Shown here: positions 9,976 through 28,820 of the stretch, piece by piece
How positions within the stretch are numbered: the first letter of the stretch is position 1
Layout: each line of letters begins with the position of its first letter
IMG/VR virus record: IMGVR_UViG_3300020438_000186
Coordinates: 1 to 29,394 of that record
Source: a virus
Lineage: Duplodnaviria; Caudoviricetes
Reading direction: 5' to 3' (one strand)
DNA: 29,394 bases
The notes under the pieces: generated by a model
Told to the model about the DNA's origin: nothing
Seen by the model: the letters and a program-made list of their open reading frames with translations, nothing else
The model's database searches: none
Translations under genes and position numbers: made by a program

Positions 9976-10428
9976 ATGGAACTAAAAAAATTAGTAGTCG
10001 ACAGTAAGGCGAAGTGGATTGACTTCTCTGGACTCGACGGGTTCTCAGTAGAGATAGCAAACCTCTCACGAAAAGAATTAACAGGTATACGTAAGAAGTG
10101 TACTACAACAAAATTTAATAGAAAGTCTAGAATGGCAGAAGAAGTTTTAGACGATGAAAAGTTTGTTACCGAGTTCACACGTAAAACTGTGAAAAATTGG
10201 AAAGGACTTACTTTGGCGCATTTGGAAACTTTAATTCTTGTTGATATAGATGACCAAGATCCTAGTAAAGAGGTAGAGTACTCGGAAGATAACGCCGAAG
10301 TACTTGTAAGTCAATCAACTGAATTTGATACTTGGCTCAATGAGGTAGTCTTTGACCTTGATAACTTTCGTAGCGAGCCAAAGGGAGAAGTGCCTAGAAA
10401 GACTGGAGGAAATGTTCAAAAATCTTGA
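9976..10428 (+). CDS. Tail assembly chaperone (gpG-equivalent)
   Basis: 150 aa, SD AGGAG; VKNWKGLT and FDTWLNEVVFDLDNFR; two genes upstream of tape measure. Confidence 0.8.
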   Translation: MELKKLVVDSKAKWIDFSGLDGFSVEIANLSRKELTGIRKKCTTTKFNRKSRMAEEVLDDEKFVTEFTRKTVKNWKGLTLAHLETLILVDIDDQDPSKEVEYSEDNAEVLVSQSTEFDTWLNEVVFDLDNFRSEPKGEVPRKTGGNVQKS

Positions 10429-10771
10429 CTCCGGAATGACCGCAGAGCGGTACTTCGAGATGCAAGAGCAAATGGGGCTAGAGATAGAGGAAGATAAAAT
10501 TCCTCCTTCTATGGACGATTTTCCGGATCTTGTACTTGATTCCATACAAATTTTTAACCGACTGGGAGATAGGGTATTTCCTGAAATCGGGTATATAGGA
10601 AAAGACTATACAAATCTTAAACTATATATGAAGGTTTACGGCATAATGGAGGAAGATAAAGATTTTCTTCTAGAAATTATTGAATGGTTAGACGCCAGAG
10701 CTATCAAAAAGTCCGCAGACCAATTAAAGCGGGAATATGATAAGATGAAGAGAAAGTCTAGTGGCAAATAG
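10352..10771 (+). CDS. Tail assembly chaperone second ORF (gpT-equivalent), probably reached by frameshift; start uncertain
   Basis: Overlaps the previous ORF in the +1 frame; MTAERYFEMQEQMG, IFNRLGDRV...GYIGKDYT; directly precedes tape measure. Confidence 0.75.
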   Translation: MTLITFVASQREKCLERLEEMFKNLDSGMTAERYFEMQEQMGLEIEEDKIPPSMDDFPDLVLDSIQIFNRLGDRVFPEIGYIGKDYTNLKLYMKVYGIMEEDKDFLLEIIEWLDARAIKKSADQLKREYDKMKRKSSGK

Positions 10772-22741: not shown

Positions 22742-23080
22742 ATGACCGCAGCAACATACGACTTAGTGATCGACCAAGGGTCCGACTTTGCGATTGACTT
22801 AACAATTACAGAGGGAGGAACGGCGAAAAATCTTACTGGCTACTCAGGCAGGGCACAACTGCGTACGACTCATGCAGCCTCTAGTGCGACTGCAAGTTTT
22901 ACTGTATCTGTAGTTAATGCCGCTAATGGGACAATGAAAATGGAAATGCAAGCTGTTACTACAACGGGTATTGCTGCCGGTAGATACGTATATGATATGG
23001 AAATTCATACAGCTAATAATGCTACGGTTAAAAGACTAATACAAGGGAGCGTGACAATAAATCCTGAGGTAACTAGATGA
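22742..23080 (+). CDS. Collar / fibre-attachment protein (position of T5 p132), Ig-like
   Basis: YDLVIDQGSDF...NLTGYSGRAQLR...GRYVYDMEI...RLIQGSVTINPEVTR; first gene after the hub. Confidence 0.72.
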   Translation: MTAATYDLVIDQGSDFAIDLTITEGGTAKNLTGYSGRAQLRTTHAASSATASFTVSVVNAANGTMKMEMQAVTTTGIAAGRYVYDMEIHTANNATVKRLIQGSVTINPEVTR

Positions 23081-23484
23081 CAACCTTAGGAACAAAAGTT
23101 GCTATTACCGAAGAAGTTACAGAGGTTTCGGTAACTAATAATAGTAGTATTCAGGTTACTTTAGATGATACTACTACTACTCTTGTTACTGTAAATAACC
23201 TTGCACTTCCAGCACAATTTCAAGATGCAGCAAATATTGCAATAACTCCTTACAATACTATAACATCTAGCAATCTACAGACTGCTTTGCAACAACTTGC
23301 AGATCAAAGTTTTAGAGGTGCTGATGCCCCCACAGGGAGTAATATAGAGCAAGGAGATCTTTGGTACGAAACAGATACCGAGACATTAAAAATCTACAGA
23401 GAAGTTTCTTCCAACGTGTTTAACTGGGTTCCAGTAGCAATGGGCACAGGGGATTCTGACACTTTAGACGGAGGGTCTTACTAA
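23077..23484 (+). CDS. Short fibre/linker protein ending in LDGGSY
   Basis: 135 aa; beta-rich N-terminus, SSNLQTALQQL helix, APTGSNIEQGDLWYETDTETLKIY...W module; ATGA overlap. Confidence 0.65.
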   Translation: MTTLGTKVAITEEVTEVSVTNNSSIQVTLDDTTTTLVTVNNLALPAQFQDAANIAITPYNTITSSNLQTALQQLADQSFRGADAPTGSNIEQGDLWYETDTETLKIYREVSSNVFNWVPVAMGTGDSDTLDGGSY

Positions 23485-23503
23485 GACCCGATAGGCTTTT
23501 ATT

Positions 23504-24364
23504 ATGGCACAAGTAATTAAAATCAAAAGATCTACAGGAACGAGCGCTCCTTCAACGCTTGCAGTAGGAGAATTAGCCTATAGTAAAGGTAGTGACACTT
23601 TTTATGTGGGAGACCCTGCTACTGCTAATACTCCTATTGCTATTGGCGGAGCGATTAAAAACAATGCAGGTACACCAGTACTTGCAACAGGAATTACAGC
23701 AGATGAGATAGCATCTTTAATTCTGCCATCAATTTCCTCGAATATTACCCTTGGAGATGCTACAGACGTAACTCTTACGACTGCGGGGGGATTAACGGTA
23801 ACAGGTAATCTTACTGTTAATGGTACAACAACTACTGTTAACTCGACTACAACTACCGTCGATGATCCCATCTTTACGGTTGGGGGAGATTCAGCACCGG
23901 GTTCTGACGATAACAAAGATAGAGGTATCGAATTCCGTTGGCACAATGGTAGTGCAGCAAAAGTAGGTTTCTTCGGATTTGATGATAGTACAGGTAAATT
24001 TACTTTTATTCCTGATGCTACTAATAGTTCCGAAGTATTTTCTGGAACTGCAGGTACAGTTGTAGCAAATCTAGAAGGTAACGTAACTGGTAATGTAACA
24101 GGTAATGTAACCGGCGACCTTATAATTGGTGGGCATACAGTAAGCGATATCGATATTGGTAGTGAATTTAATGATGTTGATGATCATTTAATGAGTGCGG
24201 GTGCAATTAAAGAAAAAATTGAAGCATATGGGTACGCCTCGGGTGACATAACTCAATTAGTAATTTCGAGTACGGATGCAAGTATTACAGGTACAGGTAC
24301 AGGAGCCAGCGGAAATATTTCGTTTGACTTACAAGTAGGAACTATAGACGGCGGAACATACTAA
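23504..24364 (+). CDS. Fibre protein with Mtd_N-like N-terminal module, ending IDGGTY
   Basis: MAQVIKIKRSTGTSAPSTLAVGELAY; LTVTGNLTVNGTTTTVNSTTTTVDDP; DRGIEFRW; GNVT repeats. Confidence 0.75.
   Translation: MAQVIKIKRSTGTSAPSTLAVGELAYSKGSDTFYVGDPATANTPIAIGGAIKNNAGTPVLATGITADEIASLILPSISSNITLGDATDVTLTTAGGLTVTGNLTVNGTTTTVNSTTTTVDDPIFTVGGDSAPGSDDNKDRGIEFRWHNGSAAKVGFFGFDDSTGKFTFIPDATNSSEVFSGTAGTVVANLEGNVTGNVTGNVTGDLIIGGHTVSDIDIGSEFNDVDDHLMSAGAIKEKIEAYGYASGDITQLVISSTDASITGTGTGASGNISFDLQVGTIDGGTY
24077..24112 (+). repeat. 3 x 12-bp tandem repeat encoding GNVT
   Basis: ggtaacgtaact ggtaatgtaaca ggtaatgtaacc. Confidence 0.85.
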
Positions 24365-24375
24365 TAGGATAGGTC

Positions 24376-25209
24376 ATGGCTCAGGTAATTAAACCAAAAC
24401 GTAGTTATACAGCTGGAGATGCTCCTACTACTTCCGATCTTGCAGTCGGTGAAATTGCAATCAATACCGCTGATGCTAAACTATATATTCGTGATAACTC
24501 GAATAATATAGTTGCAATTGCAGGCGGTGGCGGTACTGCAAGTGGTGCAACTACAGAAGTAACACAATCGAGTCATGGTCTTGCTATCAAAGATTGTATT
24601 CGCCACAATGGTACAGCATGGGTAAAAGCACAAGCAGATGATGGCGCCACTTTAGCACTAGGAGTAGTTACTGAAGTAGCTAATAGTAATACTTTTACAG
24701 TTGCACAGTCAGGACGATTTGAGTTAAGTTCACACGGTCTTACAGTGGGACAATGGTATTATTTAAGTGCTGCAACTGCTGGACTTTTAACAACTACTGA
24801 ACCTACAATTTCACAGCCTTTAGTATATGTAGAAGGATCAAATCATTTATTTGTTTATCCTTATCGTCCTACAAATCTATTAGTAAATGGTAGTGCCTCT
24901 ATAGTACCTGGCGATGGTACTGTTACTCTTGCAAAAATGGCAGTAAACAGTATAGATAGTGATCAGTATGTAGATGGAAGTATTGATACCGCACATATAG
25001 CGGATAATGCGGTAACTCTTGCAAAAATGGCAGGTGGGACAGATGGAAATCTTATAAGCTACGATGCTAGTGGAGATCCAGTAGCAGTAGCGACTGGTAG
25101 CGCAGGACAAATTCTAACCTCTGCTGGAGCAGGTGCGCCTCCAACATTTCAGACTCCAGCAGCAGGCGGACCGAGTGTTGGTAAAGCTTTCTTTATGGGA
25201 CAATTATAA
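24376..25209 (+). CDS. Fibre protein with Mtd_N-like N-terminus, ending in hydrophobic helix GKAFFMGQL
   Basis: MAQVIKPKRSYTAGDAPTTSDLAVGEIAINTADAKLY; central WVKAQAD..LGVV..GQWYYLS domain; VTLAKMA repeats; GSAGQILTSAGAGAPPTF motif. Confidence 0.75.
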   Translation: MAQVIKPKRSYTAGDAPTTSDLAVGEIAINTADAKLYIRDNSNNIVAIAGGGGTASGATTEVTQSSHGLAIKDCIRHNGTAWVKAQADDGATLALGVVTEVANSNTFTVAQSGRFELSSHGLTVGQWYYLSAATAGLLTTTEPTISQPLVYVEGSNHLFVYPYRPTNLLVNGSASIVPGDGTVTLAKMAVNSIDSDQYVDGSIDTAHIADNAVTLAKMAGGTDGNLISYDASGDPVAVATGSAGQILTSAGAGAPPTFQTPAAGGPSVGKAFFMGQL

Positions 25210-26780: not shown

Positions 26781-27110
26781 ATGTCAACATCACCAGTAGC
26801 TTCATCAGTTTCAGATATTACAGCAACAATAAATACAAATTCAGTAACAGAATTTGTATGTACGAGTAACCAAACTACTTTTACTATATCTTATACTGTA
26901 GGTGAATTAATGGTATTCTTAAATGGTATCCTTTTAGATAATGGAGTAGACTATGCGGCATCGAATGGAACTTCTGTAGTATTAACAAATGGAGCTGCAG
27001 CAGACGATGTCTTAACTATAAATACCGATAAGTTTACATTTACAGCCACCTCTGTAGCCACCACAGCATCAGTAGACGATGCCACAGCACTGGCAATCGC
27101 ATTAGGATAA
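26781..27110 (+). CDS. Short virion protein with one beta domain and C-terminal helix ATALAIALG
   Basis: NQTTFTISYTVGELMVFLNGILLDNGVDYAASNGTSVVL, a module common in phage fibre/baseplate proteins; SD GGGG upstream. Confidence 0.7.
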   Translation: MSTSPVASSVSDITATINTNSVTEFVCTSNQTTFTISYTVGELMVFLNGILLDNGVDYAASNGTSVVLTNGAAADDVLTINTDKFTFTATSVATTASVDDATALAIALG

Positions 27111-27114
27111 AAAT

Positions 27115-27450
27115 ATGGCAAATACATTTAAAAATGCATTCGCAGCAAGTGTAAATCACGCGGCTTATGTTGATTTATATACTGTTCCGTCTAGCACAAC
27201 TACGGTAATTCTTGGTTTAGCACTTTGTAATAAGACAGCAAATGCTGTAAATGTTACAGTGCAAATGCAAGATACTTCTGCATCAAACGCAGACTTTCAA
27301 GTTCTTGATACTGTGAGTATACCAGCAAGAACAACTTTGGAAGTACTAGCTGGACAGAAATATATTTTAGAAACAACAGATGTGTTGCGAGTAAAAGCAG
27401 GAACTGCTTCCGCACTTGATGCCACACTAGGATTGATGGAGATTACCTAA
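27115..27450 (+). CDS. Small beta-sandwich adaptor protein (copy 2, MANTFKN type)
   Basis: 111 aa; LYTVPSSTTTVILGLALCNKT...SIPARTTLEVLAGQKYILETTDVLRV; SD AGGA. Confidence 0.72.
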   Translation: MANTFKNAFAASVNHAAYVDLYTVPSSTTTVILGLALCNKTANAVNVTVQMQDTSASNADFQVLDTVSIPARTTLEVLAGQKYILETTDVLRVKAGTASALDATLGLMEIT

Positions 27451-28820
27451 TGCCTTTTCTTGGGAGAAGCCCCGAAAAAGTAGGAATTAGTGATGGTAGT
27501 ATTGTTACAGCCAAAATAGCAGATGATGCAATAACCGCAGCCAAAATAGCAGATGATGCAGTTGTAACAGCCGCTATAGCAGATGATGCAATTACAGCAG
27601 CACTTATAGCAGACGATGCAGTTGTAACAGCTTCTGTAGCAGATAACGCGATTACTAGTGCTCTTTTAGCTGCAGGAGCAGGAGGCTTGGATTGGGATAC
27701 TACTGCTAAAACTTCAAACTTTACGGCAGTAGCAGAAAAAGGATACCTTTTAAATACAGCAGGTGGAGCAGTTACTGTTACTTTGCCAGCTTCTGCAACA
27801 GTAGGAGACAAAATAACTATAGTCGATGCTACAGCCAGTGCTTCTGCTAACAATATTACAATAGCTAGAAATGGATTAAAAATTTATGGAGGCACATCAG
27901 ATGTAATTCTTAGCCGAGACAGGGCTTCAACTTCTTTAATATATGCAGATACAACAAATGGTTGGGTTCCTTATGGAGGAGAAGATTATTATACTAATTA
28001 TGGGATTGAAGTTTTAATTGTAGCTGGAGGAGGTTCCGGAGGTGCTAATAAATCTAATGGTAATGGCTCTGGAGGAGGCGGTGCTGGCGGCATGCAAAAA
28101 ATTAGTTATAATGCTATTCCTGCCACAGCGTACTCGATCGTTATAGGAGCAGGCGCCTCTCAAAACACAAACTATAGCACAGGTGCTAGAGGTGCTAATG
28201 GAAGTAATACTACCGCGTTTGGCAGTAGTTCTGTTGGAGGTGGTGCAGGTGGTGGAAGTAATGTAGATACTGCTGGAGTCTCTGGAGGTTCTGGAGGCGG
28301 GGGCGGTAATGCTGGTGGAGATGGTGGAGCCGCTGGAACTTCGGGACAAGGAAATGCTGGAGGAAACACTTCATCTGGTAGTCCATGGAGAGGAGGCGGT
28401 GGCGGTGGTAAAGGAGCCGTCGGCGGTGATGGAGAAACCTCAGGAAATGGAGGAGCAGGCTCGAATACTTACGCTACTTGGGCAACCGCAACCAGTTCAG
28501 GTGCTAATAGTGGTTACTACGCTGGTGGTGGAGGCGGTGGAGTGTACTATACTGCTGCTGGCGATACTACGGGTGGTAATGGCGGAGGCGGTAAAGGTGA
28601 ATCTGGAAATGGCGGAGATGGAACTTCAGGAACTGCAAACACCGGAGGTGGTGGAGGTGGTGGAGCAAGTCACTCTAACGCTGGTAATGGCGGAGGTGGA
28701 GGTTCAGGCATTGTAATTGTTCGCTACCCGGGTGCTCAAAGAGGTACAGGCGGAACAATAGCTTCATCAGGCGGTTACACCTACCACAAATTCACTTCTA
28801 GTGGAACTTATACAGGATAA
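27450..28820 (+). CDS. Fibre/adhesin with 10-aa repeat stalk and glycine-rich C-terminal domain
   Basis: MPFLGRSP start; (I/V)xxAxIADDA repeats; NTAGGAVTVTLPASATVGDKITIVD domain; EVLIVAGGGSGG...GGSGIVIVRYP...YHKFTSSGT Gly-rich domain. Confidence 0.8.
   Translation: MPFLGRSPEKVGISDGSIVTAKIADDAITAAKIADDAVVTAAIADDAITAALIADDAVVTASVADNAITSALLAAGAGGLDWDTTAKTSNFTAVAEKGYLLNTAGGAVTVTLPASATVGDKITIVDATASASANNITIARNGLKIYGGTSDVILSRDRASTSLIYADTTNGWVPYGGEDYYTNYGIEVLIVAGGGSGGANKSNGNGSGGGGAGGMQKISYNAIPATAYSIVIGAGASQNTNYSTGARGANGSNTTAFGSSSVGGGAGGGSNVDTAGVSGGSGGGGGNAGGDGGAAGTSGQGNAGGNTSSGSPWRGGGGGGKGAVGGDGETSGNGGAGSNTYATWATATSSGANSGYYAGGGGGGVYYTAAGDTTGGNGGGGKGESGNGGDGTSGTANTGGGGGGGASHSNAGNGGGGGSGIVIVRYPGAQRGTGGTIASSGGYTYHKFTSSGTYTG
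27501..27650 (+). repeat. 5 x 30-bp imperfect tandem repeat (10-aa units)
   Basis: Units end in tagcagatgatgca or close variants at 30-bp period, with alternating (A/G)TTGT(T/A)ACA and AT(A/T)AC(C/A)GCA starts. Confidence 0.9.

What the first reader, a model, noticed from the sequence alone, without database searches (positions are those of the whole stretch)
23077..25209. Daisy-chain fibre: C-terminal DGG[S/T]Y plug always followed by an N-terminal MAQVIKxKRS socket
Seen: gene A ends DTLDGGSY*, gene B starts MAQVIKIKRS...LAVGELAY and ends GTIDGGTY*, gene C starts MAQVIKPKRS...LAVGEIAIN and has a different C-terminus. The peptide and the domain occur only as adjacent pairs across gene boundaries. 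Known: T5 has one long L-fibre gene here; the N-terminal module resembles Mtd_N-type domains. Inference: the fibre is assembled non-covalently, collar to A to B to C, by peptide-in-domain docking. B has both ends, so it could self-polymerise and give fibres of variable length.
Basis: partly seen in the sequence, partly recalled or inferred. Interest (0 to 1): 0.8.

Follow-up and report, generated by a model that had tools for sequence, protein, structure and literature searches.

The report
Peptide-plug joints chaining phage tail fibres
In this T5-like phage three neighbouring side-fibre genes carry matching ends, a six-residue tail on one protein and a 50-residue cap on the next (the same cap that starts the T4 long tail fibre tip), and these are predicted to clip together, so the fibre is likely built from swappable segments in a fixed order rather than by one segment polymerising.

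Summary
After a T5 p132-like collar gene, A ends LDGGSY, B has a cap plus IDGGTY, and C has a cap only. The cap is the N-terminal domain of T4 gp37 (Mtd_N-related). T4 gp36, which is known to bind that region, ends QDFGYY. Across viral contigs the pairing is strong but not 'always': 60 of 94 KIKRS-type caps and 82 of 117 Mtd_N-type caps follow a plug gene. Plug and cap types co-vary: the plug ends aromatic in 60/60 versus 0/82. A 3:3 model of the B tail with the C cap scored 0.91 against a best control of 0.27; that mark was reached by 116/157 solved and 2/215 mismatched pairs. The docking reading is supported but unmeasured. Self-polymerisation of B is less likely: middle and terminal caps form distinct classes, A plugs usually differ from B plugs, and B length is set by the gene (133-784 aa). 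It is not excluded, and cyanophage A-1(L) has a polymerising middle subunit with a different joint. My ten literature searches found no description of the motif pair. This scan has noted the joint before in other genomes.

The parts
22742..23080 (+). Collar protein, T5 p132 / LtfC-like (112 aa); inferred anchor of the side fibres
   Evidence: PHROG 3304 E 4e-22; Pfam LtfC E 2e-5, below the curated cut-off; PDB 8hqz_Q E 0.003, T5 p132 7qg9_R E 0.06
23077..23484 (+). Gene A (135 aa), proximal segment: N-terminal part unstructured as a monomer (inferred collar-binding), a helix, a cap-like small beta domain, then the plug
   Evidence: residues 81-112 weakly match the cap profile (hhalign prob 37%, E 3.5e-4); at least 341 homologues
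23464..23481 (+). Plug 1, LDGGSY-stop
   Evidence: family consensus D[AG]GSY in 113 of 120 homologues, none ends DGGT[YF]
23504..23659 (+). Cap (socket) of B, middle-link class (GELAY)
   Evidence: cap HMM E 1.5e-16, 3.7e-17; class analysis
23504..24364 (+). Gene B (286 aa), two-ended middle segment with a shaft domain shared with cyanomyophage structural/fibre proteins
   Evidence: PHROG 697 residues 78-230 E 5e-45; 301 phage records, 300 of them named as cyanophages; two-ended B-type proteins 133-784 aa
24344..24361 (+). Plug 2, IDGGTY-stop
   Evidence: B residues 277-286 are the main predicted interface with C
24376..24531 (+). Cap (socket) of C, terminal class (GEIAIN); homologue of the T4 gp37 N-terminal domain
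   Evidence: PHROG 1699 long tail fibre distal subunit E 6e-8; T4 gp37 44% identity, E 6e-4; AF2 pLDDT 88.5; complex
24376..25209 (+). Gene C (277 aa), distal segment without a plug; replaced by a different protein with the same cap in close relatives
   Evidence: L002 has an identical A but a 579-aa C; L026 and L048 have 68-69-aa C genes; residues 121-161 weakly like A-1(L) gp81 (E 3e-4)
26781..27450 (+). Second, separate junction type downstream: F ends DATALAIALG, G (111 aa, MANTFK...) follows
   Evidence: 23 of 23 distinct G homologues with an upstream gene follow a hydrophobic C-terminal tail; binding not tested

Best explanation
A, B and C are separately encoded segments of the side tail fibre of a T5-like siphophage, likely trimeric, likely joined end to end in the fixed order collar-A-B-C by a six-residue C-terminal plug that is predicted to dock on the T4 gp37 / Mtd_N-type cap of the next segment. 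In the model three plugs add as parallel strands to the first strand of three caps. The IDGG residues meet the two lysines of the IKxKRS strand, and the terminal Tyr packs against Pro17, Asp21, Ser10 and Lys8 (predicted). B is a spacer whose length is set in the gene (shown across relatives). C is the exchangeable distal module (exchange shown, host-recognition role inferred). A probably replaces the pb1 N-terminus that threads into the T5 collar (inferred from synteny only).
For: (1) Association. In loci fetched with B, junctions are 32 plug-cap, 16 plug-other, 9 other-cap and 562 neither; over all loci 264/89/100/979, odds ratio 29. Cap-anchored scans: 60 of 94 and 82 of 117 caps follow a plug gene. 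(2) Subtype covariation. The sixth plug residue is aromatic in 60/60 before KIKRS-type caps (59 of them exactly C-terminal) and in 0/82 before NPVL-type caps. In 70%-identity clusters with a plug it is 28 of 29 versus 0 of 10. (3) Conservation is at protein level: all synonymous codons occur at D-G-G in 89 plugs. (4) Known anchor. T4 gp37 scores E 7e-14 on a cap HMM built without it. gp36 ends QDFGYY, phiEap-3 gp36 IDFGSY and an Acinetobacter T4-like gp36 LDYGTF. Trimeric gp36 binds the N-terminal region of gp37 (PMC3004832). (5) Plug and cap are fused in one frame in L341, L426 and L369. (6) ESMFold2, C(1-52)x3 with B(247-286)x3: ipSAE 0.91, best of 3 controls 0.27; runs share at least 95% of contacts; partner pLDDT at least 94; the mark was reached by 116 of 157 solved and 2 of 215 mismatched pairs, counts only roughly applicable. 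The interface includes the invariant P17 and near-invariant K8, G25 and A28. No solved relative of gp36, the gp37 N-terminus or the cap profile was found in the PDB copy. (7) Fixed order. Caps with GExA[YFW] carry their own plug in 72 of 82 cases, caps with an aliphatic residue in 10 of 103; only 4 of 96 aromatic-class caps follow a cap-bearing gene.
Against: No binding has been measured. Only the B-C joint was modelled, not A-B, B-B or collar-A. About a third of caps have no strict plug in the adjacent gene (34 of 94, 35 of 117). Some of these are degenerate plugs or have an intervening gene, but others have none, for example Rhodococcus phage ReqiPepy6 (5 cap genes, no plug seen), S-8S56 and ACG-2014f. 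12 of 113 plugs have no cap within 900 nt; 6 of 10 records searched further had no cap match, all incomplete. Loci are related and the scans were anchored on the motifs, so the p-values overstate independence. The plug pattern was widened after I had seen. The model of A gave no fold match to T5 pb1. In 15 of 65 A-B pairs the plug cores are identical.
Confidence: 0.78

Rival explanations
1. The same joint, but B also docks on itself, so the fibre is A-(B)n-C with variable length.
For: B has both ends, and its plug differs from A's by I/L and T/S only. In 15 of 65 A-B pairs the plug core is the same. An anchor / 14x middle / cap fibre is shown experimentally for cyanophage A-1(L) gp82-gp81-gp80 (PMC10966104).
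Against: Middle and terminal caps are distinct classes. None of 120 A homologues ends DGGT[YF], while close B relatives keep DGGTY. 31 of 35 A-B pairs from loci not chosen by the plug pattern differ in the core (hand count). B length varies 133-784 aa in the gene. The A-1(L) subunits have no cap and no DGG tail.
Confidence: 0.12
2. The plugs are docking sites on a hub, and B and C attach in parallel or as branches rather than in series; some fibres may be A-C directly.
For: Vibrio phage 1.208.B has two plug-only anchor genes before two cap genes. BPP-1 Bbp9 has two internal D[FY]G motifs besides its terminal one. Plugs are similar enough that cross-docking is plausible.
Against: In the window A has one plug and no internal copy. 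The cap classes track position in the gene order.
Confidence: 0.05
3. No direct binding: the motifs are linked only by shared ancestry of a fibre cassette or by a DNA recombination site, and the DGG tail is a trimer-closing motif.
For: Plugs without a nearby cap exist, and related loci are not independent.
Against: Codons vary freely and the spacing between genes varies. The pairing recurs in sipho-, myo- and podophages with unrelated bodies. Subtypes co-vary. The model interface is mainly the plug.
Confidence: 0.05

Closest known systems
Phage T4 long tail fibre, gp36-gp37 joint
   Same: The gp37 N-terminus is the same cap; gp36 ends in a D-x-G-x-aromatic tail; trimeric gp36 binds the gp37 N-terminal region (PMC3004832 passages).
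   Different: T4 has one such joint in a myophage fibre, and gp36 has no cap. Here the joint is used twice in series with a two-ended segment, on a siphophage collar. The passages read do not resolve the T4 interface.
Pfam Mtd_N (PF18454): Bordetella phage BPP-1 Mtd and streptococcal HylP N-terminal caps
   Same: 28 of 101 caps hit the family at E up to 0.1, best 2.6e-12. The gene before mtd, bbp9, ends ADLGGIA. Classic Mtd_N-type caps follow DGG plugs in 82 of 117 cases.
   Different: B and C score no Pfam hit. Direct comparison with BPP-1 Mtd is not significant (E 0.11) and fold scores are weak (Z 2.6-2.9). The KIKRS subtype uses an aromatic terminal plug, the NPVL subtype does not.
Phage T5 side (L-shaped) fibre: p132 collar plus pb1
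   Same: Same tail layout: Dit pb9-like, p140-like, central fibre, p132-like collar. In T5 the pb1 N-terminus is thought to intertwine with the collar (10.1101/2022.09.20.507954 passages).
   Different: One fibre gene in T5, a chain of short genes here. No sequence or fold similarity of A to pb1 was detected.
Cyanophage A-1(L) neck fibre gp82-gp81-gp80
   Same: Three adjacent genes for anchor, middle and terminal trimers (PMC10966104 section read); C has a weakly similar bead segment.
   Different: gp81 polymerises about 14 times through N-terminal beta-hairpins and has neither cap nor DGG plug. B is an elongated, length-variable protein.

Membership tests
T4 gp36-gp37-type fibre joint | Downstream protein begins with the gp37 N-terminal domain | tested here: met
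   gp37 E 7e-14 on the cap HMM; C cap vs T4 gp37 44% identity, E 6e-4; PHROG 1699
T4 gp36-gp37-type fibre joint | Upstream protein ends in D-x-G-x-aromatic | tested here: met
   gp36 QDFGYY, IDFGSY, LDYGTF versus LDGGSY and IDGGTY here
T4 gp36-gp37-type fibre joint | Physical trimer-to-trimer binding | tested here: inconclusive
   Predicted only: 0.91 versus best control 0.27; no measurement
T4 gp36 family | Body homologous to gp36 | tested here: not met
   A and B have no gp36 family hit in Pfam or PHROGs; only the tail is shared
Pfam Mtd_N (PF18454) | Score above the family cut-off | tested here: not met
   B and C: no hit at E 0.1; 28 of 101 related caps hit
Pfam Mtd_N (PF18454) | Same small beta fold as the Mtd / HylP cap | tested here: inconclusive
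   Monomer model: 1yu0 Z 2.9, rmsd 2.9, 40 aligned; 2c3f Z 2.6, rmsd 2.9, 46 aligned; both below unrelated rows; Foldseek E 0.56-1.4
T5-type side fibre module | p132/LtfC collar gene directly before the fibre gene, with p140 and pb9-like genes in the tail module | tested here: met
T5-type side fibre module | pb1/LtfA-like N-terminus inserted in the collar | tested here: inconclusive
   A residues 1-45 have low pLDDT as a monomer; no match found
A-1(L)-type polymerising bead-chain fibre | Middle subunit is a gp81-like bead with an N-terminal hairpin | tested here: not met
   gp81 does not match the cap profile and has no plug
A-1(L)-type polymerising bead-chain fibre | Middle subunit present in many copies per fibre | not testable with these tools
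   needs proteomics, SEC-MALS or EM

The most novel reading that the evidence does not exclude
Plug and cap form a general connector code for viral fibres with at least three matched subtypes (KIKRS with DGGx[YF] or D[FY]GxY; NPVL-type Mtd_N with DGGx[AVP]; RRGTT-type Mtd with D[FY]GS), which explains the T4 gp36-gp37 and BPP-1 fibre-Mtd joints alike; and two-ended segments whose own plug equals the upstream plug (15 of 65 pairs, possibly B here) polymerise into variable-length fibres, as A-1(L) gp81 does with another joint.
Probability: 0.15. Interest if true: 0.85.

Novelty: new variant of a known kind. Interest (0 to 1): 0.62.

Why it matters
How gp36 grips gp37 in T4, and how Mtd-type caps attach to their fibres, is not explained in the papers I could read. 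A six-residue tail plus a 50-residue cap gives a precise hypothesis that can be tested by mutation in T4 itself. It also lets fibre assembly order be read from sequence for many unannotated marine phage genes: about 1500 IMG/VR stretches hold one narrow DNA form of the plug (estimate), and 1357 phage records match the cap at E up to 1. It marks the B-C joint as the point where distal modules are exchanged between close relatives. It also offers a small trimer-to-trimer coupling pair for protein engineering.

Tried and rejected
Sequence searches of the PDB with the C cap, the cap profile, T4 gp36 and the gp37 N-terminus gave no true relative. Fold searches with the cap and with A gave nothing at E 0.001 or Z 5. 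crAss001 gp29 (7qof_j, Z 2.5) was followed up as a possible solved plug-cap pair and rejected: it binds a capsid hexon pocket (PMC10172136 passages). A-1(L) gp81 as a homologue of B was rejected. Profile comparison with BPP-1 Mtd was not significant. D versus G showed no similarity, so assigning C-D to the second junction type is untested. The cap alignment was too diverse for the search for related loci, so the prokaryote-genome and metagenome collections were not scanned. The DNA pattern for the NPVL-type cap came from a recalled consensus, not from a call. Searches for cap genes elsewhere in 10 records with orphan plugs found matches in 4; all 10 are incomplete, so this is uninformative. 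A DNA-level repeat or recombination site was rejected on codon variation. Literature: ten searches; 'DGG motif' with phage, tail fiber and C-terminal gave 0 papers, and the Mtd docking search gave 0. Subscription journals, figures and bioRxiv supplements were not visible. The T4 distal-rod model in 10.64898/2026.03.06.709160 may show the joint in figures I could not see.

Full report
Context. The window is the head and tail module of a T5-like siphophage: terminase, portal, protease, major tail protein, p140-like tube protein, tape measure, pb9-like distal tail protein, a 2247-aa central fibre/hub, then a p132/LtfC-like collar gene at 22742-23080. It is a 29.4-kb virus record estimated 55% complete. 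In T5 the collar anchors three trimeric side fibres, probably through the first ~50 residues of pb1 (10.1101/2022.09.20.507954, passages). Here the collar is followed by short genes A, B and C.

Observation. The motifs are exactly as reported. Two of 26 window genes end in the plug, none carries it internally, and 3e-5 such ends are expected from composition. The cap occurs twice, at the starts of B and C.

Association elsewhere. Four sets of viral loci were examined: 80 fetched with B (the best 80 of 585), 123 by a plug DNA pattern, 123 by a KIKRS cap pattern and 120 by an NPVL/Mtd_N cap pattern (consensus recalled). Plug-anchored: of 113 distinct plugs, 71 have a cap within 150 nt, 13 within 151-900 nt (often past a small intervening gene), 12 have none and 17 were unjudged. 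Cap-anchored: 60 of 94 (7 of 101 matches dropped as out of frame or lacking upstream DNA) and 82 of 117 follow a plug gene. Misses include degenerate plugs such as ITGGNF, and true absences. Junction counts over all loci are 264 plug-cap, 89 plug-other, 100 other-cap and 979 neither; in the B-fetched set 32, 16, 9 and 562. These loci are related and motif-selected, and the plug pattern was widened, so the counts show strength, not a clean probability.

Covariation. Before KIKRS caps the sixth plug residue is Phe or Tyr in 60 of 60, and it is the last residue in 59. Before NPVL caps it is aromatic in 0 of 82 and the tail is often longer. After clustering caps at 70% identity the split is 28 of 29 versus 0 of 10 clusters with a plug; 15 and 6 clusters lack one. 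A third pairing, D[FY]GS followed by an RRGTT cap, appears in L032 and L066. BPP-1 bbp9, the gene before mtd, ends ADLGGIA and has two internal D[FY]G motifs. Plug and cap are fused in one frame in L341, L426 and L369. Codons in the plug vary freely, so selection acts on the peptide.

Identity of the cap. It is the N-terminal domain of T4 gp37: E 7e-14 on an HMM built without T4. A tblastn with the C cap matches 1357 phage records at E up to 1, mostly T4-like long tail fibre distal subunits among the 50 listed. T4 gp36 ends QDFGYY, and two other T4-like gp36 proteins end IDFGSY and LDYGTF. Trimeric gp36 binds the N-terminal region of gp37 (PMC3004832, passages). 28 of 101 caps hit Pfam Mtd_N, but B and C do not, and comparisons with Mtd itself are inconclusive. 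Cultured carriers of plug-cap pairs include Colwellia phage 9A, Vibrio phage 1.208.B, S-CBS1 and Arthrobacter phage Gusanita. Counter-examples are ReqiPepy6, S-8S56 and ACG-2014f.

Structure prediction. Three copies of C(1-52) with three of B(247-286), each with a 75-row alignment, scored ipSAE 0.90-0.91 against a best control of 0.27. The runs share at least 95% of contacts and partner pLDDT is at least 94. The mark was reached by 116 of 157 solved complexes and 2 of 215 mismatched pairs; these counts hold only roughly for this job. The interface is C residues 1-11, 15, 17, 21-23, 25 and 28 with B residues 277-286, plus two or three residues further back. The contact register rises in parallel, which I read as strand addition. 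Lys6 and Lys8 meet IDGG, and Tyr286 meets Pro17, Asp21, Ser10 and Lys8. Pro17 is invariant and Lys8, Gly25 and Ala28 nearly so. No solved relative was found by sequence that the model could be recalling, although unliganded Mtd and HylP structures exist. Close cousins of true partners also pass this test, so it cannot settle the order.

Fixed order or polymer. Caps with an aromatic residue after GExA (B type) carry their own plug in 72 of 82 complete genes, aliphatic ones (C type) in 10 of 103. Only 4 of 96 B-type caps follow a cap-bearing gene, against 59 of 115 C-type. A plugs differ from the B plug core in 50 of 65 pairs, and in 31 of 35 outside the plug-selected loci (hand count). In A's own family 113 of 120 end D[AG]GSY and none DGGT[YF]. 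B-type proteins range from 133 to 784 aa, so length is tuned in the gene. Close relatives keep collar, A and B but exchange C (L002, L010, L026, L048). Against this, 15 of 65 pairs have identical cores, the window's two plugs differ only conservatively, and a polymerising middle subunit has a precedent: the A-1(L) neck fibre is gp82, about 14 gp81 trimers and gp80 (PMC10966104, section read in full), though with another joint. I put polymerisation at about 0.12.

Shown, predicted, inferred. Shown: the motifs, their association and covariation, homology of the cap to gp37, exchange of C. Predicted: the B-C interface. Inferred: trimeric state, A-B docking, collar-A attachment, fixed order, and a host-recognition role for the distal genes.

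Novelty. The joint itself is old (T4 gp36-gp37). The motif pair was not found in ten searches of the open library. Passages of the RBPseg atlas (PMC12143355) and a Klebsiella RBP atlas (10.64898/2026.05.12.724579) have no occurrence of 'Mtd'. A 2026 T4 preprint fits the fibre in maps of about 7-8 A without describing the joint in the section and passages read. Passages of PMC12892980, PMC10172136 and 10.64898/2026.02.16.706137 added nothing on it. Subscription papers, figures and bioRxiv supplements were not visible. This scan's index lists ten earlier notes on the same or a like joint in other genomes. They are unchecked AI notes and not independent evidence; I had reached the T4 link before reading them. 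What this window adds is the T5-like collar context, the position-specific cap classes and a controlled complex model. Verdict: new variant of a known kind, interest 0.62.

Noticed in passing
window 26781-27450; L003, L026, L048, L240: A second junction code: 23 of 23 distinct homologues of G (about 111 aa, MANTFK...) with an upstream gene follow a gene ending in a hydrophobic tail such as ALAIALG or AMAIAL. In L026 and L048 gene C is only cap plus ALAIALG (68-69 aa), an apparent adaptor from the first code to the second.
   Followed up: partly
window 26781-27110: F resembles the body of C in L003/L005 (E about 7e-11) but lacks the cap, and is conserved in that form in L001 and L002. How it attaches is unexplained; it may start a second fibre branch F-G-H.
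   Followed up: partly
window 27450-28820: H (456 aa) ends in a glycine-rich domain (Pfam Gly_rich_2, E 9e-12), reminiscent of the polyglycine adhesin gp38 of T2-type phages; a candidate receptor-binding tip.
   Followed up: no
window 23308-23433 (A residues 78-119): A's C-terminal domain is weakly similar to the cap core, suggesting that the common GDLWYDT-type fibre domain and the cap are related.
   Followed up: partly
L066, L067, L089, L095 and others: The same collar-like gene plus A-B-C cassette occurs in other phage loci. In L089 and L131 the plug gene is followed by what I recall as a T4 gp13 neck-type gene (label recalled, not tested), so the cassette may also build neck fibres.
   Followed up: no
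L082 4599-6125 (BPP-1 bbp9): Two internal D[FY]G motifs plus a terminal DLGG; these could give several Mtd docking sites per fibre.
   Followed up: no
L088, L112, L127, L138, L142, L159: A small gene of 60-120 aa, by eye coiled-coil-like, often sits between B and C; possibly a fibre folding chaperone.
   Followed up: no
window 24736-24858 (C residues 121-161): Weak similarity to the bead protein gp81 of the A-1(L) neck fibre (E 3e-4).
   Followed up: partly
window 9976-10771: Two overlapping tail assembly chaperone frames (PHROG 313 and 3914), consistent with the usual programmed frameshift before the tape measure gene.
   Followed up: no
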